A stretch of DNA of 64,000 bases from Candidatus Kerfeldbacteria bacterium RIFCSPLOWO2_02_FULL_42_19 (lineage in GTDB: Bacteria; Patescibacteriota; Patescibacteriia; HO2-48-17). Numbering within the stretch: position 1 is the stretch's first letter; each line of letters starts with the position of its first letter. The notes under the pieces are model-generated. The model was not told where the DNA came from, ran no database searches, and saw nothing but the letters and a program-made list of their open reading frames with translations. A program made the position numbers and the translations under genes. This document shows, in pieces, positions 2,468-64,000 of this stretch. The DNA lies in NCBI GenBank assembly GCA_001818315.1, contig MHKF01000018.1:64325-128324 (forward strand), written 5' to 3'.

Positions 2468-2640
2468 GTCGCCCCGAATACCATTTCTTGTTCAATACAT
2501 CATTCAATGCATAAGAAAAACAGGAGGAAGACTCTCCTTTCTCAGCACACTGTGCAGTGTTAGTGCTTCGAAAGCGAGAGTCTTCCTCCTGTTTTTCTAT
2601 GATCAAAATGTATTTTTCACAGACGAAAGTGCATTCGGCA
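2468..2640. repeat. Family-1 palindromic repeat element, copy 1 (central loop in inverted orientation)
   Basis: Outer stem cgccccgaata/gcattcggc; perfect 16-bp inner stem caggaggaagactctc/gagagtcttcctcctg followed by TTTTTCTAT. Shares the conserved 3' tail ttttctatgatcaaaatgtatttttcacagacgaaag with the copies at 29.6, 45.5 and 48.3 kb. Confidence 0.8.
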
Positions 2641-29555: not shown

Positions 29556-29717
29556 GTCACCAAATACTGTTTTTGTCTCATGCACAAAGCAAAAGAGGAG
29601 GAAAACTCTCGCTTTCGGAGCACTAACACTGCACCGTGTGCTGAGAAAGGAGAGTTTTCCTCCTCTTTTGCTATGATCAAAATGTATTTTTCACAGACGA
29701 AAGCGCATTCGGCGACA
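29556..29717. repeat. Family-1 palindromic repeat element, copy 2
   Basis: Inner stem gaggaggaaaactctc/gagagttttcctcctc (G-C to A-T covariation relative to copy 3), loop gctttcggagcactaacactgcaccgtgtgctgagaaag, conserved 3' tail; between convergent fmt and GT2 genes. Confidence 0.8.
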
Positions 29718-57611: not shown

Positions 57612-58059
57612 TATTTCTATCTTAAAAAGACCCTTGTTTCGGGTCAAATCAATCATTATTTATACTCTATCGTATTTTACTCATCCGCGCAAGTGCAAAA
57701 ATTTTTCTTCACACAGTCTAGACTTCATGCGTTGTATGAAGGGACTGTTGCCGAATACACTTTTGCCTGCAAAAATTACAGTGGACTTTTTACATGTTTC
57801 AATGCCGGATTGCTCACATGCGTATAGCGTTGCGTTGTCTTGATGTTGTTGTGTCCGAGCAACTCCTGGATATAACGAATATCTACCCCGTTTTCGAGGA
57901 GATGAGTCGCAAAGCTGTGCCGGAGTGAATGGAACGATGCTTGTTTTCGAATACCCGCACGCTTCAGCGCCTGATAAAATACTGCCTGAGCCGTACGAGA
58001 CGAAAGAGATCCACCGCGTTGACTTCTAAAGAGAAGATCGCGTGAGGTTGCAAAAGATT

Positions 58060-59080
58060 AGACCTGTTGCGTATTAAATATGGTATCATAAAGACAGAGT
58101 AGAAATTAAAACAACATAAAATATGAATCTTTCTAGAATTTTTCAGAATCCTCGGCAGTTAAAAGCATTAACCGGAGCATCGAAAGAAGAGTTCGATGAT
58201 CTGCTTCCAGTATTTGAGTCTTGCCTCAAGAGATTAAAGAAAGATCACAGTACTGCACAGAAAAGAAGGTTTGGTGGCGGTCCCAAAGGCAAACTTCCTA
58301 CGGTTGAACTCAAATTATTTTTCATCCTTATGTATGTCAAAGTATATCCCACCTTTGATGTTTTAGGTTTCCTCGTAGATTTTGATCGCTCAAGAGCCTG
58401 CAGGAACACTCATTTCCTCTTCACGGCACTGGAAAAATCCTTAGGGAGAAAGATTGTCTTACCCGAACGAAAAATTCGCTCAGTAGAGGCACTCTTTCAA
58501 AAGTTTCCTGATCTTAAGGATGTATTCGTTGATGGGCTGGAACGACCAGTCCAGCGACCAAAAAAGCAAAAACAACAACGAAAACTCTATTCGGGTAAAA
58601 AGAAAACCCACACCAAGAAGAGTGTGGTGGTGGTCGATGAAAAGAGACGCATCTTGTTGCTCACAAAAACCAAGTCAGGCAGGAGGCATGACAAGCGTTT
58701 GGCTGACAAACAAGCCTTGTTTGAATGGATTCCGGAATCGATTACCGTCTGGGTGGATACGGGTTTTCAAGGGATACGCAAACAACATACCAATACGATG
58801 ATCCCCAAGAAAGCAACCAAGGGACACCCCTTAACCTACCAAGAAAAACAAGAGAACAAAACAATTTCTGGTTTACGTGTGGTGGTAGAGCATGCTATTG
58901 GAGGTATAAGACGGTTCAGAAGCATTGCTGATATCTATCGGAATAGAAAAGCTTTTATGGAAGACAGATTTCTCAGAGTCGCCGCTGGACTCTGGAACTT
59001 ACATCTGAATCATACAACATAATCTCACAGGGAATGTGGAAATATATTGTTTGATTCTGATATTAATACGCAACAGGTCT
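58060..59080 (+). mobile_element. IS element (IS4/IS5-superfamily-like, single DDE transposase), ~1.02 kb, 18-bp perfect terminal inverted repeats, 3-bp ATT target duplication
   Basis: IRL AGACCTGTTGCGTATTAA (58060-58077) and IRR TTAATACGCAACAGGTCT (59063-59080) are exact reverse complements; flanked by ATT on both sides. Confidence 0.85.
58123..59022 (+). CDS. DDE transposase of the IS element
   Basis: YSGKKKTHTKKSVVVVDE...VDTGFQG...VEHAIGGIRRFRSIADIYRN pattern typical of IS5-family/Harbinger-like DDE transposases. Confidence 0.75.
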   Translation: MNLSRIFQNPRQLKALTGASKEEFDDLLPVFESCLKRLKKDHSTAQKRRFGGGPKGKLPTVELKLFFILMYVKVYPTFDVLGFLVDFDRSRACRNTHFLFTALEKSLGRKIVLPERKIRSVEALFQKFPDLKDVFVDGLERPVQRPKKQKQQRKLYSGKKKTHTKKSVVVVDEKRRILLLTKTKSGRRHDKRLADKQALFEWIPESITVWVDTGFQGIRKQHTNTMIPKKATKGHPLTYQEKQENKTISGLRVVVEHAIGGIRRFRSIADIYRNRKAFMEDRFLRVAAGLWNLHLNHTT

Positions 59081-59642
59081 ATTGAGAAGTGATGAGAGTA
59101 CGAAGATCTTGTATAAAATTTTTAGAGATGACTGTGAGTCGATCTTTGTTTCCTTTTCCATTACGAATGAATAGGAGAAGATTGTTCAGATCAATATCGC
59201 TCATACGAAGGCGGACTACCTCGCTTACGCGCAAACCCGAACCATATGTGAGCGCCAGTAATACTCGGTGTTTCAGATTGGCAGTACAAGCAATCATACG
59301 TCGAATTTCATCGCGTGTGAGAATAACGGGTAGTTTCCATGCACGTTTAGGATAATGAATATGAGTAAGCGGCGGGAGGTGATACAAATTGATTCGCGCG
59401 AAATTGATGGCGTGAATGTAAAGAGCGATGGTTTGACTCGAACGTCCTTTCTGGAGTTGATCTTGGATAAAGAATTTCATTTCATCCTCACCGATTTTGT
59501 TTATGCGCATTCGAAAGAATGTGTAGAGATTCCACAATGCACGGCTATAAGCGCTATAGGTTCGATAACTGTAATTTCGAACTTGTATTTCGCGTTTGAG
59601 TATTTCTAATAAACTTGGCATAATAAAAATGGGTGAATCCAC

Positions 59643-59736
59643 AAAGGTAGCAATCGAGAGGATTACCCATCAATACAGATATCATACCCCTTTCGCCCAC
59701 ATTCCGCAATTTTATGCGTATAAGCACTAGTTAGGC
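59643..59736 (+). other. Putative attI region with GTTAGGC core site (59730-59736)
   Basis: Canonical integron core 7-mer GTTAGGC lies 31 nt upstream of the first cassette ORF and ~90 nt from the divergent recombinase start. Its reverse complement GCCTAAC is the first 7-mer of the attC-like site after cassette 1. Confidence 0.6.
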
Positions 59737-59767
59737 GAAATGCGACTTAACAATTAAGCGTTTAAGT

Positions 59768-60196
59768 ATGAAAAATTTTTCATTTTCCGTAGACAAAGAT
59801 GTGGTGTCTGCCAAAGAAGCTATTAAGCTCTATCTCGCGCTGAAATGGGGCAATGAATCAAAGTACGATGAAAACAAAATGAAACAAGCTTTAGAAAGTA
59901 CAACGATGGTAATATCAGCTCGAGATAGAGCTGGAAAACTCGTCGGTTTGACGAGAGTATTGAGCGATGGCGTGATTCATACATCAGTGGCAGATATTGC
60001 CGTTCATCCTGAATATCAAGGTCAAGGTATTGGTACGCAGATGATGGAGTTAGTGAAAAAACAGTATGGCCACACCGGCATATTTGTCGATGCCTTTAAG
60101 GAAAATGAAAAATTTTTCATGGAGTGTGGATACAAAAAGAGAGATATGATAGTGCTTTCGAAGCTTTTTGTTAAAGAACCGTCGCACATCGCCTAA
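59768..60196 (+). CDS. Cassette 1: GNAT family N-acetyltransferase
   Basis: Acetyl-CoA binding motif QGQGIGTQMM; stop codon TAA lies inside the GCCTAAC inverse core. Confidence 0.8.
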   Translation: MKNFSFSVDKDVVSAKEAIKLYLALKWGNESKYDENKMKQALESTTMVISARDRAGKLVGLTRVLSDGVIHTSVADIAVHPEYQGQGIGTQMMELVKKQYGHTGIFVDAFKENEKFFMECGYKKRDMIVLSKLFVKEPSHIA

Positions 60197-60322
60197 CACG
60201 CAGTATGCGGCTACAGTTTGCTCCGTTTCACTCCGAAAACTTCCGCCCATATTCACTGGTTGTACCGTACTTCGTGCGATATTATACAGCCAGTGAACAT
60301 CGCATACTGCGGAACGTTGTGC
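60191..60322 (+). other. attC-like site 1 (132 bp imperfect palindrome, GCCTAAC ... GTTGTGC)
   Basis: Outer IR cgcagtatgcg/cgcatactgcg, inner IR tattcactggttgta/tacagccagtgaaca; ~85% identical to site 5. Confidence 0.7.
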
Positions 60323-60351
60323 GAAATAATTCGCCTTAGTATACTGCCAAC

Positions 60352-60744
60352 ATGAACACTAACCGTAAAAATATATCGTCAGGTTCTCCAATGGAAAAGC
60401 CAATCGGCTTCTCGCGTGCCGTTAAAATCGGAAACATGATTTCTGTATCAGGCACAGCTGCCATTGCGCCAGACGGAAGCACTGCCCATCCAGATAGCGT
60501 TTATGAACAGACAAAATACTGTATCGAAATCATGAAAAAAGCTATCGAAGAAGCAGGCGGCACGCTCGAAAATGTCATACGCACGCGGATCATGCTCACC
60601 GACATTTCAAAATGGGAAGAAGCTGCAAAAGCTCACGGTGAATACTTCACAGATATTCGTCCCGCGTGCACCTTTGTCGAAGTCAGTGGCTTCATTAAAA
60701 AAGATTGGCTAGTAGAAACCGAAGCCGATTGTCTTCTTGATTGA
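60352..60744 (+). CDS. Cassette 2: RidA/YjgF/L-PSP family protein
   Basis: ~130 aa chorismate-mutase-like fold, ..VSGTAAIAPDG.... and C-terminal ..VEVSGFI.. typical of RidA. Confidence 0.7.
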   Translation: MNTNRKNISSGSPMEKPIGFSRAVKIGNMISVSGTAAIAPDGSTAHPDSVYEQTKYCIEIMKKAIEEAGGTLENVIRTRIMLTDISKWEEAAKAHGEYFTDIRPACTFVEVSGFIKKDWLVETEADCLLD

Positions 60745-60761
60745 AGACGGCGAATTACATC

Positions 60762-60896
60762 ACACAACAGCGTATAGCCAGTTCGGCACTTTATTATGGC
60801 TGGCTTTCAGCACAGCCAAAAGTGCCTCTCCCATATTTGCTGGTGATTGCACATATTATATCACCAGCAAACATCGGCTATACGCGAACGTTGTAC
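60762..60896 (+). other. attC-like site 2 (ACACAAC ... GTTGTAC)
   Basis: IRs cgtatagcc/ggctatacg and tttgctggtgat/atcaccagcaaa; inverse core matches the GTTGTGC boundary at 6/7. Confidence 0.65.
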
Positions 60897-60939
60897 GCTG
60901 TGCCGCGCTTTTGATAAACTCAATGTGAATCGTTAAAGT

Positions 60940-61332
60940 ATGGATATGAGCAGCTCAAAACTTTCACTTAAGGTGTTGCCGATGAAGGTCGGTATCTGTC
61001 GTCTGGAAAAGGAAGCGAGGATTCCTGATTGGGCAATAGTGGGTGGATTCTTTTCTGTTACGCGCACCGATGATGAATTGTCGGTAGTGTGTATGGAGGA
61101 AAATATACCGGAAGATGTAAAGTGTGAAAAAGGATGGCGCGTGTTTAAGGTGGAGGGAATACTTGATTTCTCATTGACCGGAATCCTCGCTTCCATAGCC
61201 AATCCATTAGCTCAAGCTAAAATCAGTATTTTTGCTGTTTCCACATTTGATACCGACTATATTCTCGTGAAAGAAGATACTCTTGAAGAAGCCGTGAAAG
61301 TTTTGAGCATCGAATTCAGTGTGTTGAAGTAA
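60940..61332 (+). CDS. Cassette 3: ACT-domain-like small protein
   Basis: 130 aa; beta-alpha-beta-beta-alpha-beta style pattern with two ~60-aa halves (..VGICRLEKEA.. / ..ISIFAVSTFDTDYILVKE..) resembling ACT regulatory domains; low certainty. Confidence 0.45.
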   Translation: MDMSSSKLSLKVLPMKVGICRLEKEARIPDWAIVGGFFSVTRTDDELSVVCMEENIPEDVKCEKGWRVFKVEGILDFSLTGILASIANPLAQAKISIFAVSTFDTDYILVKEDTLEEAVKVLSIEFSVLK

Positions 61333-61354
61333 AAAAAGAGAAGCGCGGCACAGC

Positions 61355-61532
61355 GTACAACAGCGCGCATCCGAGAGATTTTGCTACAATAATGCTGTAT
61401 CCTTTGAAAAAAGCAGAGCCAAGATACAAGCTGGTCGCTTTTATCCAAATGGCGTTTTCGCGCTTTGCTTCGGCTCCGCCGATATTTTAGCAAAGCGCTC
61501 AACGCCACTTCGGATGCGCGCAAACGTTATAC
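61355..61532 (+). other. attC-like site 3 (GTACAAC ... GTTATAC), 178 bp
   Basis: Inverse core is the exact reverse complement of the cassette-3 5' boundary GTTGTAC; IRs gcgcgcatccgag/cttcggatgcgcgc and gcgctttgc/gcaaagcgc. Confidence 0.65.
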
Positions 61533-61646
61533 GCAATTCAAAAAATATTTTTTTAACGAAGAATACTGAATGATAGGCTTTCAAAAGGAAATAAATTTGA
61601 TTTTTAAAACACAATAATTATAAACTTTATCTAATATTTAATAGAC

Positions 61647-62297
61647 ATGCAGATTAAAAAGCTTTTAAGACAATTTGATGAATTACATCATATCCATGGA
61701 GATAAAAATTTGGACTCGATTTATGGTGCAGGACAAATTCATAATCCTAAAGTGTGCTTAGTATTTATGAACCCCACTGGTAGAAATGTAGCGTCAGATA
61801 AAAAATGGCGTGGCTTAAAAGCGCCTTGGATAGGCACAAAAAATGTATGGAAAATGTTTTTTCAACTTGGTTTTTTCGAAGAAAGTTTTTTCAACGAAAT
61901 TAATGCAAAAAAACCAAGCGATTGGGATTATGAATTTGCAGGCAAAGTTTATACAAAAGTGAGTGATAATTCTATATACATAACTAATTTATCAAAGGCA
62001 ACACAGATAGATGCAAGACCTCTTAGAGATGATGTTTTTAGAGAGTATCTAGGTTTATTTGAAGAAGAAATAAATATTCTTAATCCACAAATTATCATAA
62101 CTTTTGGAAATCAAGTAAGCTCAATTTTACTGGGTAAAAATATCAAGGTTTCAGATTATAGAAAGAAGCATGAAAATATTAAAGTTAATGGAAATGCTTT
62201 TAAGGTTTTTCCTGTATACTACCCAGTTGGACAAGGCATGAGAAATATAAAAAAAGCAAAGGAAGATATTGCTTGGATTATCAAAAATCAAATTTAA
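61647..62297 (+). CDS. Cassette 4: uracil-DNA glycosylase superfamily-like protein (AT-rich cassette)
   Basis: ..VCLVFMNPTG.. in the position of the UDG GEAPG motif, ..IYITNLSKA.. and ..IIITFGNQVS.. resemble UDG family 4/5 motifs B. Markedly lower GC than neighbours. Confidence 0.45.
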   Translation: MQIKKLLRQFDELHHIHGDKNLDSIYGAGQIHNPKVCLVFMNPTGRNVASDKKWRGLKAPWIGTKNVWKMFFQLGFFEESFFNEINAKKPSDWDYEFAGKVYTKVSDNSIYITNLSKATQIDARPLRDDVFREYLGLFEEEINILNPQIIITFGNQVSSILLGKNIKVSDYRKKHENIKVNGNAFKVFPVYYPVGQGMRNIKKAKEDIAWIIKNQI

Positions 62298-62406
62298 AAT
62301 TAACGAAGAAAGCCTATTATAATGAGTAAGAACGAAAAATATTTTTTGAACTCACTTCGCTACGCTTCGTGCCACGCTGCGCTCTCCTCCCTGTGGTCGT
62401 CGGGGC

Positions 62407-62506
62407 GTATAACAAGGGATATACGGTTCAGCCCTCGGCTCGGGCTTCACCCAAATTTTTCTTCCGCTACGCTACATAAAAACTTCGTATATCCCTGACG
62501 TTATAT
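62407..62506 (+). other. attC-like site 4 (GTATAAC ... GTTATAT), ~100 bp
   Basis: Inverse core is exact reverse complement of cassette-4 boundary GTTATAC; IR gggatatacg/cgtatatccc. Confidence 0.65.
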
Positions 62507-62533
62507 GAAATACATTTTTAGAGCTATTTGAAA

Positions 62534-63301
62534 ATGCAAAAAGTTACCAAAGCAATAATCACATTAATACTTTCATACATTCTACTCAGCTTGTATGCTT
62601 TTGGCGTTTTTTTACAACAGCCACTCATAAAAGGAGAATCACTTACTATCCAAGCAACACTTGAGCCTTTTGCGTATGTATTGCTTATGGTCATTGGTAA
62701 CTTTTTGATTTTCAAAGCAGTATATTCTCAAAAAAGATCAAAGAACCGTTTCTTCGATGAGAGAAAACTTTTAGCACCGACAATAATTTTTCTTTTATTG
62801 TTGAGTTTCGGTGCAGGAATCCATACAGCAGGGCAGCTCATCGAAGAAACTTTCGTAAATACAAATGCCAACATTCAACATTTTACAGATAATTTTACAT
62901 CACAAGTAGCATACTTTTTTGAGGAATATCCTGCTCATTTTTTAATTGCTTTGCCTTATCTTATACTTTTGTATTTTGTGGCAAAACTAGAATTGAACAG
63001 ACCACCTATTCATCTTAAAAATATCGAAAAAGGCATTATTGTAATGTCAGCAATACTTTATGGAATCATTTTTGCAGTATTAAATGCGGAAGGGCAGGTA
63101 ACAATATTCGCAATTATTATCGCTGGATATTTGATTTATTCAATTTACAGATCAAAACAACAAATAAAGCGGGAACTGATAGATATGCCTTTTTCGACTT
63201 ACTTTGTAATCGGAAATGCGGTGATGATTTTATTAAATGTATTATTTGGAATAATGTATGGGTGGTCTGTTCAGCCAACTGAATTAGGTTTTGGCTCATA
63301 A
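62534..63301 (+). CDS. Cassette 5: polytopic membrane protein of unknown function
   Basis: ~6-7 predicted TM helices; track start TTG 62528, ATG at 62534. Confidence 0.5.
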   Translation: MQKVTKAIITLILSYILLSLYAFGVFLQQPLIKGESLTIQATLEPFAYVLLMVIGNFLIFKAVYSQKRSKNRFFDERKLLAPTIIFLLLLSFGAGIHTAGQLIEETFVNTNANIQHFTDNFTSQVAYFFEEYPAHFLIALPYLILLYFVAKLELNRPPIHLKNIEKGIIVMSAILYGIIFAVLNAEGQVTIFAIIIAGYLIYSIYRSKQQIKRELIDMPFSTYFVIGNAVMILLNVLFGIMYGWSVQPTELGFGS

Positions 63302-63337
63302 ACGCAACTAAAAAATAATAGCTCTAAAAATTACATC

Positions 63338-63459
63338 ATATAACACTGCGTATGCGGCTACGGCTTGCTACGGAAGCCTTCGCCCATATTCACTGGCAGT
63401 AACGCGCTTCGCGCGATATTATACTGCCAGTGAATATCGCATACTGCGGAACGTTAGAT
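63338..63459 (+). other. attC-like site 5 (ATATAAC ... GTTAGAT), 122 bp
   Basis: Exact reverse-complement relationship to cassette-5 boundary GTTATAT; near-identical to site 1 (shared gtatgcggctac...cccatattcactgg...gcgatattatac.gccagtgaa.atcgcatactgcggaacgtt). Confidence 0.7.
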
Positions 63460-63475
63460 GTAATTTGTCCTGCCT

Positions 63476-63910
63476 ATGTTCCAAAAAATAATATCACCAA
63501 TAATATATGCACTTTTTATCATTCCGGGATTAATCGCTGGAATGGCGAATGTGATCTTTTTTGATACGCGTGATGATGATTTAGAATTAATCGTTGGTAA
63601 CCTACTAGCTGGTATGATAATTTTGATCTTGATAATAACATCGATAGCTGTAGTGATGACCATTGGAAACATAGTGATCTATAAAATAGAAAGGCTCAAA
63701 AAACCCACAAAAAAAGATCACATTCGCCAAAGTCTAATATTTTATCTAGTTCTTGTTCTTGGAATATTGGTTACGATTACTGCCGAAAATACCAACGGCT
63801 TAGGATTTACCTATCTCTACATAATAATGATGGCCGCAACTATTGCAATCGTAACCAACATAATCTATCTCGTTTACAAAAATTATCACGGCAGGACAAA
63901 CTACATCTAA
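63476..63910 (+). CDS. Cassette 6: small 4-TM membrane protein of unknown function
   Basis: 144 aa, four hydrophobic helices; stop codon inside ATCTAAC inverse core. Confidence 0.5.
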   Translation: MFQKIISPIIYALFIIPGLIAGMANVIFFDTRDDDLELIVGNLLAGMIILILIITSIAVVMTIGNIVIYKIERLKKPTKKDHIRQSLIFYLVLVLGILVTITAENTNGLGFTYLYIIMMAATIAIVTNIIYLVYKNYHGRTNYI

Positions 63911-64000
63911 CAGCGCCTATCGGGGGTTGTTGCCTACTTTCAGGCTTGGTACTATGGAAAAAGCCTCTGACTGTTTTCAGAGCTTTTCTCTGAAAACAAA
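63905..64000 (+). other. attC-like site 6, partial (starts ATCTAAC; runs off window)
   Basis: ATCTAAC is the exact reverse complement of the cassette-6 boundary GTTAGAT; downstream IRs tcagag/ctctga visible before window end. Confidence 0.55.

What the first reader, a model, noticed from the sequence alone, without database searches (positions are those of the whole stretch)
59643..64000. Integron-like gene cassette array with self-consistent core sites (at least six cassettes)
Six same-strand small ORFs (GNAT, RidA, ACT-like, UDG-like, two membrane proteins) are each followed by a 100-180 bp imperfect palindrome. Every palindrome begins with an RYYYAAC-type 7-mer (GCCTAAC, ACACAAC, GTACAAC, GTATAAC, ATATAAC, ATCTAAC) and ends with a GTTRRRY-type 7-mer (GTTGTGC, GTTGTAC, GTTATAC, GTTATAT, GTTAGAT). 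Decisively, the 7-mer opening each palindrome is the exact reverse complement of G+6 nt at the 5' boundary of that same cassette (GTTAGGC/GCCTAAC, GTTGTAC/GTACAAC, GTTATAC/GTATAAC, GTTATAT/ATATAAC, GTTAGAT/ATCTAAC; GTTGTGC/ACACAAC is 6 of 7). That is the relationship expected if each unit was a circular cassette inserted by recombination between G and TT of a core site, as in integrons. A canonical GTTAGGC attI-like core sits next to a divergently oriented tyrosine recombinase gene. Two cassette stop codons lie inside the inverse core, as is common for attC.
Basis: partly seen in the sequence, partly recalled or inferred. Interest (0 to 1): 0.92.

Follow-up and report, generated by a model that had tools for sequence, protein, structure and literature searches.

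The report
Integron-like cassette array, domain-less integrase
A tiny-genome groundwater bacterium (Candidatus Kerfeldbacteria) carries a real integron-style array of swappable gene cassettes, but the recombinase beside it is a short Xer-like enzyme that lacks the domain thought to define integron integrases (here also broken by an insertion sequence), and at least 15 related loci from other assemblies show the same layout.

Summary
Window 59.7-64 kb has an attI-like core (GTTAGGC, 59730), then six same-strand single-ORF cassettes. Each ends in a 100-180 nt imperfect palindrome, RYYYAAC...GTTRRRY. Other assemblies of the locus add two more cassettes. The 7-mer opening each palindrome complements the 7-mer at that cassette's own 5' boundary (29/32 variable bases; permutation p=5e-6). 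This is the footprint of circular cassettes inserted at G|TT.

A covariance model built from 22 such sites hits only the array in the 64 kb window.

- The divergent tyrosine recombinase is split by a 1,023-bp IS5-family element.
- Once rejoined (273 aa), it lacks the ~43-aa IntI-specific domain. It scores below the integron-integrase cutoff and as well against archaeal XerA.

About 270-aa relatives in 15 further loci, mostly candidate-phyla bacteria, have the same divergent arrays, the same site type and a conserved attI-like motif. Most of these sites also lack the extrahelical bases of canonical attC.

Best reading: a sedentary integron-like system run by an insertion-less Xer/IntI-like recombinase, frozen here by the IS. 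I found no description of this in the held literature. Recombinase activity is inferred, not shown.

The parts
57776..58057 (-). 3' fragment of the tyrosine recombinase gene (residues 181-273 plus stop). It carries HxxR (HSLRH), the second His and the catalytic Tyr (RYTH), with no frameshift or internal stop.
   Evidence: Translation; tblastn of the rejoined protein, residues 181-273 = 58057-57779 at 100%; collinear with 29 ~270-aa homologs.
58059..59081 (+). IS5-family insertion sequence (1,023 bp) that interrupts the recombinase. Exact 19-bp terminal inverted repeats TAGACCTGTTGCGTATTAA at 58059-58077 and 59063-59081. Transposase ORF 58123-59022.
   Evidence: Pfam DDE_Tnp_4 2.7e-28 and DDE_Tnp_1; NCBIfam IS5 family. 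IR pair found, 0.03 expected by chance. Present in all 17 contigs that carry the N-terminal fragment.
59082..59621 (-). 5' fragment of the tyrosine recombinase gene (residues 1-180 from MPSLL). It has the SAM-like N domain, the catalytic Arg (GLRVSE) and GKGNKDR. The reading frame ends in a TAG supplied by the IS end.
   Evidence: Identical to database protein P0001, named 'Candidatus Kerfeldbacteria bacterium RIFCSPHIGHO2_02_FULL...'.
59713..59741 (+). attI-like core: TATGCGTATAAGCACTAG|TTAGGCGAAAT. The inferred crossover lies between G59730 and T59731, 109 nt from the recombinase start codon.
   Evidence: Related motif ATAAAC-N-AG|TTRYRS-GAAAT seen upstream of the recombinase start in 9 loci by eye. 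A regex finds it within about 150 nt upstream of the recombinase start in 14 of 29 relatives' loci, against 0.008 expected per 360 nt. GCCTAAC opening attC1 is its exact reverse complement.
59731..60316 (+). Cassette 1: GNAT acetyltransferase ORF 59768-60196 (142 aa). The stop codon lies inside the inverse core.
   Evidence: Pfam Acetyltransf_7/1/10. Boundaries from the G|TT positions.
60191..60322 (+). attC-like site 1 (132 nt): GCCTAAC-A-[12-bp L helix]...GAAC-GTTGTGC.
   Evidence: Model R1 75.5 bits, E = 4e-18. Bottom-strand DNA fold -23.3 kcal/mol. Helix geometry.
60317..60890 (+). Cassette 2: RidA/L-PSP family ORF 60352-60744 (130 aa).
   Evidence: Pfam Ribonuc_L-PSP 8e-22.
60762..60896 (+). 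attC-like site 2 (135 nt): ACACAAC...GTTGTAC.
   Evidence: R1 62 bits. Fold -40.1 kcal/mol.
60891..61526 (+). Cassette 3: ACT-domain protein ORF 60940-61332 (130 aa).
   Evidence: Pfam ACT_7 3.5e-23, A9CJY8-like_N.
61355..61532 (+). attC-like site 3 (178 nt): GTACAAC...GTTATAC.
   Evidence: R1 61 bits. Fold -49.0 kcal/mol.
61527..62500 (+). Cassette 4: uracil-DNA-glycosylase-superfamily ORF 61647-62297 (216 aa).
   Evidence: Pfam UDG 1.2e-7; NCBIfam UDG family 4, weak.
62407..62506 (+). attC-like site 4 (100 nt): GTATAAC...GTTATAT.
   Evidence: R1 77.1 bits, E = 1.5e-18.
62501..63453 (+). Cassette 5: hydrophobic ORF 62528-63301 (257 aa, no family).
63338..63459 (+). attC-like site 5 (122 nt): ATATAAC...GTTAGAT. 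Close in sequence to site 1.
   Evidence: R1 69.4 bits. Fold.
63454..64000 (+). Cassette 6: hydrophobic ORF 63476-63910 (144 aa) and the first 96 nt of attC-like site 6 (from 63905, ATCTAAC). The window end cuts the site. In other assemblies it ends at GTTAAGT, 83 nt beyond the window. Cassettes 7 (157 aa) and 8 (methyltransferase, 229 aa) follow, with sites of 184 and 98 nt, then a transposase-like ORF where every contig stops.
   Evidence: R1 on L001: 57.3, 55.5 and 34.5 bits for sites 6, 7 and 8.

Best explanation
This is a chromosomal (sedentary) integron-like system of a candidate-phyla-radiation bacterium (Candidatus Kerfeldbacteria).

Anatomy. It has a platform and an array. The platform is a tyrosine recombinase gene with, about 110 nt upstream and divergent, an attI-like core ...ACTAG|TTAGGCGAAAT. 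The array holds at least eight single-ORF cassettes in one orientation. Each cassette ends in an attC-like site.

Site structure. Each site reads R'' (NNNYAAC), 1 nt, an 11-13 bp L helix, a 50-140 nt branched variable part, L', 3-5 nt ending in AC, then R' (GTTRYRY).

Inferred mechanism.
- The recombinase binds the R and L helices of the folded single strand of a site, most likely the bottom strand.
- It exchanges one strand at the invariant AAC/GTT triplet with attI (insertion) or with another site (excision of a circular cassette).
- The junction is then resolved by replication, as in integrons and in Xer-mediated integration of folded phage DNA.

How the enzyme differs from IntI. It is about 270 aa and is as close to archaeal XerA as to IntI. 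It lacks the roughly 43-aa IntI-specific insertion. Its sites mostly lack the two extrahelical bases that this insertion reads in canonical integrons.

State in this genome. A 1,023-bp IS5-family element splits the recombinase gene, so the array is presumably frozen.

Shown: the anatomy, the boundary footprint, confinement of the sites to the locus, structure covariation, and conserved recombinase-attI-array synteny in 16 loci.

Inferred: that this recombinase is the enzyme that moves the cassettes, which strand folds, and the chemistry.
For: (1) Boundary footprint. Each site's R'' complements the R' at the 5' end of its own cassette, 29/32 variable bases against 19/32 for the adjacent R' (p = 5e-6). 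This replicates in L094 (p = 9e-5) and L096 (p = 0.017).

(2) Structure. Both strands fold, and the bottom strand is more stable in 37 of 45 sites. On 22 sites from 8 genomes, 90.7% of cells pair against 71% in shuffles and 25-40% with slid partners. Ten of 11 L-helix pairs show compensatory changes.

(3) Specificity. Model R1 hits only the array in 64 kb at E <= 10, and it finds an untrained site at E = 7e-7.

(4) Conserved association. In 166 loci fetched through the recombinase, R1 hits near the closest relatives fall in 15 further loci, 37 hits in all: L015, L031, L091, L092, L094, L096-L102, L106, L113, L118. Every one lies on the strand opposite the recombinase and upstream of it. Gene maps there show runs of small unrelated genes.

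(5) A conserved attI-like motif lies upstream of the recombinase start in 14 of 29 relatives, about 60-150 nt from it by my reading of the match offsets, against 0.008 expected.

(6) The recombinase was recently functional. All catalytic residues are present, both fragments are free of stops, and it is collinear with 29 homologs. The AF2 model has pLDDT 87.7, and its best PDB fold match is the integron integrase VchIntIA, followed by XerA.

(7) Cassette traits. 5' leaders are short (23-121 nt), two stops lie inside R'', and functions are unrelated. Cassette content is almost unique between arrays (4 homologous pairs among 83 ORFs). One cassette is shared at 65% identity with L094, in a different position.

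(8) Consistent with an inactive enzyme: all 17-24 contigs of this locus from several samples carry the IS. No cassette-order variant was reported among them, and the sequences compared directly are near-identical.
Against: - No activity data. The link between recombinase and array rests on synteny alone.
- The recombinase fails the curated integron-integrase model (197 bits against a cutoff of 265) and lacks the domain reported as necessary for IntI activity (PMC9668308, PMC8138268). If that requirement were universal, this enzyme could not recombine attC-type hairpins.
- The sites used for the covariation count were picked partly by a scan that demands pairing, so the percentage paired is inflated by selection.
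- L091 shows no boundary footprint (8/16).
- Two sites (window site 8, L094 4396) have poor L helices.
- Rejoining the gene across a TA target duplication leaves an in-frame TAA. The pre-insertion state of the gene is therefore not fully clear.
- I could not see the rest of the genome, so a second recombinase acting in trans is not excluded.
Confidence: 0.72

Rival explanations
1. Xer/dif module with hitch-hikers. The recombinase is the cell's single chromosome-dimer resolvase, as XerA, XerS or XerH are. The conserved site upstream of its gene is the dif site. The 'cassettes' are small elements that integrated there one after another by mimicking dif with a folded strand, like phage and island elements that exploit Xer.
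For: - NCBIfam's best model is XerA-type (211 bits here; 226-236 bits, above the cutoff of 220, for relatives).
- A published classification places Xer-related recombinases of candidate phyla in a 'Cand' subgroup among those thought to serve cellular functions (PMC8138268).
- No second tyrosine recombinase is present in the 64 kb window.
- From my own knowledge: XerS and XerH have their dif site next to the gene, and XerCD integrates the folded single strand of CTX phage.
Against: - The gene is IS-disrupted in every sampled contig of this population, so it is dispensable here.
- Flanking genes diverge from the locus rather than converge as at a replication terminus.
- GC skew gives no terminus signal.
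- In outcome this differs little from the best explanation. It concerns the enzyme's primary job, not how the cassettes arrived.
Confidence: 0.15
2. Orphan array (CALIN). The cassettes were assembled by a canonical integron integrase that is now lost or encoded elsewhere. The neighbouring short recombinase is unrelated to them.
For: Arrays without a recognisable IntI are common, and most have no intI pseudogene nearby (PMC4889954). IntegronFinder's rules would class this locus that way, because the recombinase lacks the IntI-specific domain.
Against: - The same recombinase family sits in the same position and orientation, with the same attI-like motif, in 16 loci. The recombinases are only about 35-55% identical and the cassettes are unrelated.
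- Most sites lack the extrahelical bases that canonical IntI needs. A true IntI array fetched here (L077) shows them at fixed positions (PMC7439510).
- R1 does not detect L077's sites.
Confidence: 0.09
3. Non-mobile intergenic palindromes, such as terminators or REP/MITE-type repeats, that happen to lie between small genes.
For: The sites are stable hairpins placed after stop codons. Two unrelated perfect hairpins elsewhere in the window also begin with AAC and end with GTT.
Against: - This does not explain why each site's first 7-mer matches the far boundary of its own gene unit rather than its own other end.
- It does not explain the restriction to one side of one recombinase family.
- It does not explain the conserved attI-like core.
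- The terminator scan of the array is at chance level.
Confidence: 0.02

Closest known systems
Sedentary chromosomal integrons (for example the Vibrio cholerae superintegron, VchIntIA with VCR sites)
   Same: - Divergent recombinase and attI.
- One-orientation array of promoterless single-ORF cassettes.
- attC-type sites RYYYAAC...GTTRRRY with R and L helices and a variable tip.
- Crossover at G|TT.
- Related attC sequences within the array.
- Best PDB fold match of the recombinase model is VchIntIA.
   Different: - The recombinase has no IntI-specific insertion. VchIntIA residues 197-239 have no counterpart.
- It scores below the TIGR02249 cutoff.
- The L helix is usually an uninterrupted 10-17 bp with no fixed extrahelical bases.
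- The spacer is 1 nt on one arm and 3-5 nt on the other.
- The variable part is long and branched, and carries a strand-specific CTTCG motif.
- The host is a candidate-phyla bacterium. [quoted passage not shown]
CALIN (clusters of attC sites lacking an integron integrase; Cury et al. 2016, PMC4889954)
   Same: This is how current software would most likely label the locus: an attC cluster with no protein passing the IntI-specific profile.
   Different: A conserved, syntenic recombinase and an attI-like site are present. The 'lacking integrase' label would come from the definition, not from the locus.
Single-recombinase Xer systems (archaeal XerA/dif; XerS/difSL and XerH/difH)
   Same: - Size (~270 aa) and domain layout.
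- Best NCBIfam model (NF040815).
- Full-length alignment to P. abyssi XerA (E = 2e-40).
- A core site next to the gene. For XerS and XerH this rests on my own knowledge.
   Different: - In a rough NJ tree the CPR clade groups with IntI and other short relatives, apart from the XerA and XerD references (99% bootstrap).
- The adjacent site heads an array of cassettes.
- The gene is dispensable in this population.
Xer-mediated integration of folded single-stranded DNA (CTX phage and other elements that exploit Xer; own knowledge, not checked here)
   Same: It is a precedent for a recombinase without the IntI insertion recombining a folded hairpin with a duplex site through a single strand exchange.
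   Different: Those elements are phages or islands that integrate at the chromosomal dif. They are not arrays of single-gene cassettes with attC-type sites.
Archaeal integrons (Ghaly et al. 2022, PMC9668308)
   Same: Found in metagenome-assembled genomes of uncultivated lineages. Most were recovered as arrays without an integrase.
   Different: The archaeal integrases reported there carry the IntI-specific domain. The recombinases here do not.

Membership tests
Integron (IntI + attI + attC cassettes) | Integrase carries the IntI-specific additional domain (around patch III; reported as necessary for activity) | tested here: not met
   phmmer against VchIntIA aligns query 9-192 to 10-196 and 196-273 to 240-317, leaving 43 residues without a counterpart. 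The multiple alignment shows the ~45-aa insertion in the 2 full-length IntI rows displayed (L077, L068) and absent from CPR, L019, DPANN, XerA and XerD; the VchIntIA reference was entered without that segment. All 29 homologs are ~270 aa.
Integron (IntI + attI + attC cassettes) | Integrase reaches the curated integron-integrase model cutoff (TIGR02249, 265 bits) | tested here: not met
   197.3 bits in two stretches. CPR relatives score 208-228. True IntI from L077 and L068 score 465-477 in one stretch.
Integron (IntI + attI + attC cassettes) | attI next to the integrase gene with a GTT crossover core, and cassettes divergent from intI | tested here: met
   GTTAGGC at 59730, 109 nt from the start codon. 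Motif conserved in relatives. Function as attI is inferred.
Integron (IntI + attI + attC cassettes) | attC: inverse core RYYYAAC and core GTTRRRY bracketing an imperfect palindrome with R and L helices | tested here: met
   AAC and GTT are invariant in 22/22 aligned sites. R helix 87% and L helix 93% paired, with compensatory changes. DNA folds.
Integron (IntI + attC cassettes) | attC: two extrahelical bases in the stem, about 6 bp apart (PMC7439510) | tested here: not met
   21 of 34 sites have an unbroken 10-17 bp helix directly after the 1-nt spacer. Only 3 have a single bulge, at varying places. The control IntI array L077 has two fixed bulges. This rests on predicted pairing only.
Integron (IntI + attI + attC cassettes) | Cassette boundaries consistent with circular cassettes recombined at G|TT | tested here: met
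   29/32, p = 5e-6. L094 p = 9e-5; L096 p = 0.017; L091 shows no signal.
Integron (IntI + attI + attC cassettes) | Sites detected by the IntegronFinder attC covariance model | not testable with these tools
   The model is not available here. Rfam holds no attC family and gave no hit.
Integron (IntI + attI + attC cassettes) | Recombinase-dependent excision and insertion of cassettes | not testable with these tools
   Needs an experiment or read-level population data.
XerA-type chromosome dimer resolvase | Reaches the curated NF040815 cutoff (220 bits) | tested here: inconclusive
   The window protein scores 211.1, just below. Relatives P0070, P0002, L019, L020 and L027 score 221-236, above. The model's own product name is 'site-specific tyrosine recombinase/integron integrase'.
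XerA-type chromosome dimer resolvase | Acts at a dif site at the replication terminus | tested here: inconclusive
   GC skew over the window shows no switch at the locus. Gene orientation diverges from the locus in relatives. No closed genome was examined.
IS5 family insertion sequence | DDE transposase of the IS5 type flanked by terminal inverted repeats | tested here: met
   DDE_Tnp_4 and DDE_Tnp_1, NCBIfam IS5 (below its cutoff), exact 19-bp IRs.

The most novel reading that the evidence does not exclude
A widespread, so far unrecognised class of integron-like gene-capture systems exists in candidate-phyla bacteria, and probably also in some Ignavibacteriota, Bacteroidota and Spirochaetota. 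Its integrase is an insertion-less Xer/IntI-like recombinase, and its attC sites do without extrahelical bases. If so, the IntI-specific domain is not required for cassette recombination as such, and many 'integrase-less' attC clusters are complete systems. These enzymes may also resemble the ancestor from which integron integrases arose.
Probability: 0.5. Interest if true: 0.85.

Novelty: new variant of a known kind. Interest (0 to 1): 0.74.

Why it matters
Integrons are defined, and searched for, by an integrase that carries one specific extra domain. That domain is held to be essential because it reads the flipped-out bases of folded attC sites.

This locus and at least 15 relatives have the full integron architecture without the domain, and mostly without the flipped-out bases. 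If the short recombinase is active on these sites, four things follow:
- Gene-cassette capture extends to the ultra-small genomes of the candidate phyla radiation, where surveys reported no complete integrons.
- Part of the unexplained excess of 'integrase-less' attC clusters gets an explanation.
- The long-assumed descent of integron integrases from Xer-like enzymes becomes testable with living intermediates.
- A second, simpler structure-specific recombination system becomes available for engineering.

For this genome specifically, the array is probably a frozen relic, because an insertion sequence has split the recombinase.

Tried and rejected
- **Rfam.** No family at gathering thresholds on the whole window. 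Only a chance miRNA hit at E = 0.94 on the array. Rfam has no attC model, so this says nothing.
- **First pattern scan.** The 8-nt stem with 1 mismatch was no better than shuffles (51 hits against 17-42). I replaced it with an energy-based scan and then with the covariance model.
- **Promoter and terminator scans of the array.** At chance level (23 against 17.1 +/- 4.6; 3 against 3.9). No statement about a cassette promoter is possible.
- **GC skew.** No origin or terminus signal at the locus.
- **Cassette polymorphism between assemblies.** L001 and L002 differ by one base; only the gene calls differ.
- **P0089 locus.** No DNA returned.
- **attI pattern search.** One attempt was mis-specified and was redone in Python.
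- **Tree building.** Only NJ was available, so the position of the CPR clade relative to IntI stays unresolved (~30% support).
- **CTTCG motif.** I considered that it marks GAA-triloop mini-hairpins on the bottom strand. Only 6 of 39 copies sit in such a hairpin, so I dropped the idea.
- **IS-mediated deletion of the IntI domain.** I considered this and rejected it. The rejoined protein is collinear with 29 homologs and with XerA across the junction, and all homologs are ~270 aa.
- **DPANN archaeal relatives (L026, L030, L035, L046, L050).** No array detected.

Full report
**1. What is in the window**

Reading 57.5-64 kb and listing ORFs shows six + strand ORFs between 59768 and 63910. Pfam assigns four of them: GNAT acetyltransferase, RidA/L-PSP, an ACT-domain protein and a uracil-DNA-glycosylase-superfamily protein. 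The other two are hydrophobic with no significant family.

Each ORF is followed by an imperfect palindrome that opens with NNNYAAC and closes with GTTRYRY:
- site 1: 60191-60322
- site 2: 60762-60896
- site 3: 61355-61532
- site 4: 62407-62506
- site 5: 63338-63459
- site 6: starts at 63905 and is cut by the window end

The same locus occurs in 24 public contigs, including NCBI GCA_001818335.1 contig MHKG01000032.1. These extend 2.6 kb further. They complete site 6 and add two more cassettes with sites of 184 and 98 nt: a 157-aa protein and a 229-aa methyltransferase. After that comes a transposase-like ORF, at which every assembly stops.

The database names the organism Candidatus Kerfeldbacteria, a candidate-phyla-radiation bacterium.

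**2. Is it more than chance?**

*Boundary footprint.* If cassettes were circles opened between G and TT of their own site, the 7-mer opening each palindrome should complement the GTTNNNN at the 5' boundary of the same cassette, not the one at the palindrome's own far end.
- Over eight cassettes the four variable positions match 29/32 in the predicted register and 19/32 in the adjacent one.
- Random reassignment reaches 29 in 5 of 10^6 trials.
- The same holds in two unrelated arrays found later: L094 28/32, p = 9e-5; L096 18/20, p = 0.017. A third, L091, shows no signal.

*Folding.* Both strands of every site fold as DNA into an R helix, a small asymmetric loop, a long L helix and a branched tip.

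*Covariation.* On an alignment of 22 sites from eight genomes (A2), 90.7% of cells pair. Shuffles give 71% and slid partners 25-40%. Ten of the 11 L-helix pairs show compensatory changes. The sites were partly chosen by a scan that demands pairing, so the percentage is inflated. The variety of paired sequences is not.

*Specificity.* A covariance model built on that alignment (R1) scores 55-77 bits on the seven array sites it was trained on, five in the window and two in the extension. It scores 34.5 bits (E = 7e-7) on site 8, which was left out of training. It finds nothing else in the window on either strand at E <= 10.

The first, the IntegronFinder model, could not be run, and Rfam has no attC family.

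**3.

*It is split.* The minus-strand ORF 59079-59642 stops in a TAG that belongs to an insertion sequence.
- The element has exact 19-bp inverted repeats at 58059-58077 and 59063-59081.
- They bracket an IS5-family DDE transposase gene.
- Downstream, 58057-57779 encodes the missing C-terminal 93 residues without a stop or frameshift.
- The rejoined 273-aa protein has all catalytic residues and is collinear with 29 homologs of about 270 aa.

*It is not an integron integrase by the accepted definition.*
- Against VchIntIA (PDB 2a3v) it aligns in two blocks, and residues 197-239 of VchIntIA have no counterpart. It aligns end to end with Pyrococcus XerA.
- NCBIfam scores: XerA-type NF040815 211 bits (cutoff 220); integron integrase TIGR02249 197 bits in two pieces (cutoff 265); XerC 189; XerD 184.
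- True IntI proteins fetched as controls score 465-477 bits in one piece.
- The multiple alignment shows the ~45-aa insertion only in IntI.
- An AlphaFold model (pLDDT 87.7) has VchIntIA as its best PDB match (E = 6e-16, 313 aligned columns for 273 residues), then XerA.
- A rough NJ tree gives a CPR clade (98%) and an IntI clade (100%). Both, with other short relatives, separate from the XerA and XerD references (99%). The position of the CPR clade relative to IntI is unresolved.

The literature treats the insertion as defining and necessary (PMC9668308; PMC8138268). It places Xer-related recombinases of candidate phyla in a 'Cand' subgroup presumed to be Xer-like.

**4. It is a family, not a one-off**

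I fetched loci through the recombinase in three ways:
- seven calls to the look-up of encoding contigs for database homologs, six of which returned DNA
- 80 loci from species-representative genomes
- 80 loci from metagenomes

Results:
- Gene maps of the CPR loci show runs of small, functionally unrelated genes upstream of the recombinase and divergent from it. Examples are methyltransferases, HD, HIT, cupins, PQ-loop, NUDIX and Fic proteins.
- R1 finds sites of the same type in 15 further loci: L015, L031, L091, L092, L094, L096, L097, L098, L099, L100, L101, L102, L106, L113 and L118.
- All 37 hits lie on the strand opposite the recombinase and upstream of it. Seventeen of them were not in the training set.
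- Many of the closest homologs sit within a few hundred bases of a contig end on that same side. This is what repeated or variable arrays do to assemblies.
- An attI-like motif (ATAAAC-N-AG|TTRYRS-GAAAT) lies upstream of the recombinase start, about 60-150 nt from it by my reading of the match offsets. It was seen by eye in 9 loci and found by regex in 14 of 29 relatives, against 0.008 expected per 360 nt. Its layout is imperfect inverted repeats around the crossover.
- Cassette content is almost entirely different between arrays (4 homologous pairs among 83 ORFs). One window cassette (the 157-aa protein) recurs at 65% identity in L094, at another position with other neighbours.

**5. How the sites differ from canonical attC**

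Canonical attC stems carry two extrahelical bases about 6 bp apart. These, with the unpaired spacer and the variable tip, are needed for recombination (PMC7439510).

A true IntI-linked array fetched here (L077) shows two fixed bulges: GGC-C-GGT-T-CAGCGGC against GCCGCTGACCGCC.

In the CPR sites:
- 21 of 34 have an unbroken 10-17 bp L helix immediately after a single invariant A.
- The other arm has a 3-5 nt spacer ending in AC.
- Only three sites have a single bulge, and not at a fixed place.

So a missing base-reading domain goes together with missing bases to read. This is a correlation seen in few arrays and on predicted pairing only.

Strand asymmetry is nevertheless strong:
- The bottom strand is the more stable in 37 of 45 sites.
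- The pentamer CTTCG occurs 39 times on the cassette strand, and its complement never.
- CTTCG is mostly not a hairpin loop, and I cannot explain it.

**6. Most likely mechanism and state**

Steps shown:
- the anatomy
- the footprint of crossover at the invariant GTT
- structure conservation
- exclusive linkage to one recombinase family and one attI-like site

Steps inferred:
- The short recombinase binds the R and L helices of a folded strand.
- It exchanges one strand with attI or with another site.
- Replication resolves the junction, as in integrons and, from my own knowledge, in XerCD integration of folded CTX phage DNA.

In this genome the IS has split the gene in every contig that carries it. 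No cassette-order variant was reported among the contigs, and the sequences compared directly are near-identical. No intact allele exists in the protein database: after the 180-aa N-terminal fragment, the next hit is 55% identical. The array is therefore best seen as frozen.

One loose end remains. If the flanking TA is the target duplication, the restored gene has an in-frame TAA at the junction.

**7. Rivals**

*Xer/dif with hitch-hiking elements.* This is the serious one. It differs mainly in what the enzyme's primary job is. Against it are the gene's dispensability here and the divergent, not convergent, gene orientation around the locus. No closed genome was examined.

*Orphan CALIN built by a lost canonical IntI.* This is hard to reconcile with conserved synteny and a conserved attI across recombinases only about 35-55% identical, or with the non-canonical sites.

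*Plain intergenic hairpins.* This cannot explain the boundary register.

**8. Novelty**

Searches of the held literature for integrons in Patescibacteria, CPR or named CPR phyla found nothing relevant. Searches for Xer-type recombinases next to attC clusters also found nothing.

[quoted passage not shown] The 2022 survey does not mention Patescibacteria.

I rate this a new variant of a known kind: integron architecture with a different, simpler recombinase and a modified site. The held library is incomplete, so prior description elsewhere cannot be excluded.

Noticed in passing
window 58059-59081: A single-copy IS5-family element (exact 19-bp IRs, 299-aa DDE_Tnp_4 transposase) sits inside the recombinase gene. 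It is flanked by TA on both sides. Removing it with one TA leaves an in-frame TAA between residues 180 and 181. The rejoined protein also has 3 more residues at that point than any of 29 homologs.
   Followed up: partly
45 attC-like sites (window 60191-63459 and loci L001, L015, L031, L091-L118): The pentamer CTTCG occurs 39 times on the cassette strand, and its complement CGAAG never (26 of 45 sites have at least one copy). It sits just 5' of L', just 3' of L'' and inside the variable part. Only 6 copies are hairpin loops. This is unexplained. It could be an accessory binding motif.
   Followed up: partly
L019 10001-20178 (Ignavibacteriota MAG, contig CAVSHI010000002.1): A 269-aa recombinase also lacks the IntI insertion (TIGR02249 245 bits, below cutoff; XerA-type 221). 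It is followed, co-directionally, by at least 10 near-identical ~130-nt attC-like sites (GGCTAACACGCAAAACAACG...CGTTGTTTTGC-N5-GTTAGSC). Model R1 does not detect them. This is a second site class with the same kind of short enzyme in the 'inverted' orientation.
   Followed up: partly
L020, L027, L029, L056, L125, L142, L148, L172: Weak R1 hits (19-41 bits) lie downstream of, and co-directional with, short (~262-270 aa) recombinases. L020, L027, L029 and L056 come from Spirochaetota and Bacteroidota genomes. The four metagenome contigs have no taxon assigned. This suggests the association extends beyond the candidate phyla.
   Followed up: no
L011-L014, L016-L018, L031: The closest genome-database homologs of the recombinase sit within 7-600 bp of a contig end, always on the attI side. 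Two of them (L011, L018) still show the attI-like motif just before the break. This is consistent with arrays that do not assemble.
   Followed up: partly
L094 9831-8998 (minus strand): In this relative, the first element after the attI-like core is an rve-type (IS3-like) transposase gene. So insertion sequences target the platform in more than one genome.
   Followed up: no
L094 5316-5029 and 3159-2921 (minus strand): Two cassettes share a ~100-nt conserved stretch between the ORF stop and the attC-like site (GGCTTCGGGCATTCACCCC...CCGACTNNCGTCGGAAAAAGAAAAG). Its nature is unknown.
   Followed up: no
beyond the window end: L001 12314-13105 (about 65789-66580 in window numbering): After site 8 comes a typical cassette start (GTTAGCTGAAATG), then a 74-aa minus-strand ORF and the start of a transposase-like ORF. 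All assemblies end there, so the true length of the array is unknown.
   Followed up: partly
window 2515-2597 and 29600-29660: Two perfect hairpins that also begin with AAC and end with GTT were picked up by my structural scan but not by the covariance model. They are probably terminators.
   Followed up: no
window 59675-59689: ACAGATATCATACCC lies between the recombinase start and the attI-like core. It resembles GATAACATACACATTAT at the same place in L092, L094, L097 and L098. It could be a promoter or an extra recombinase-binding site.
   Followed up: no
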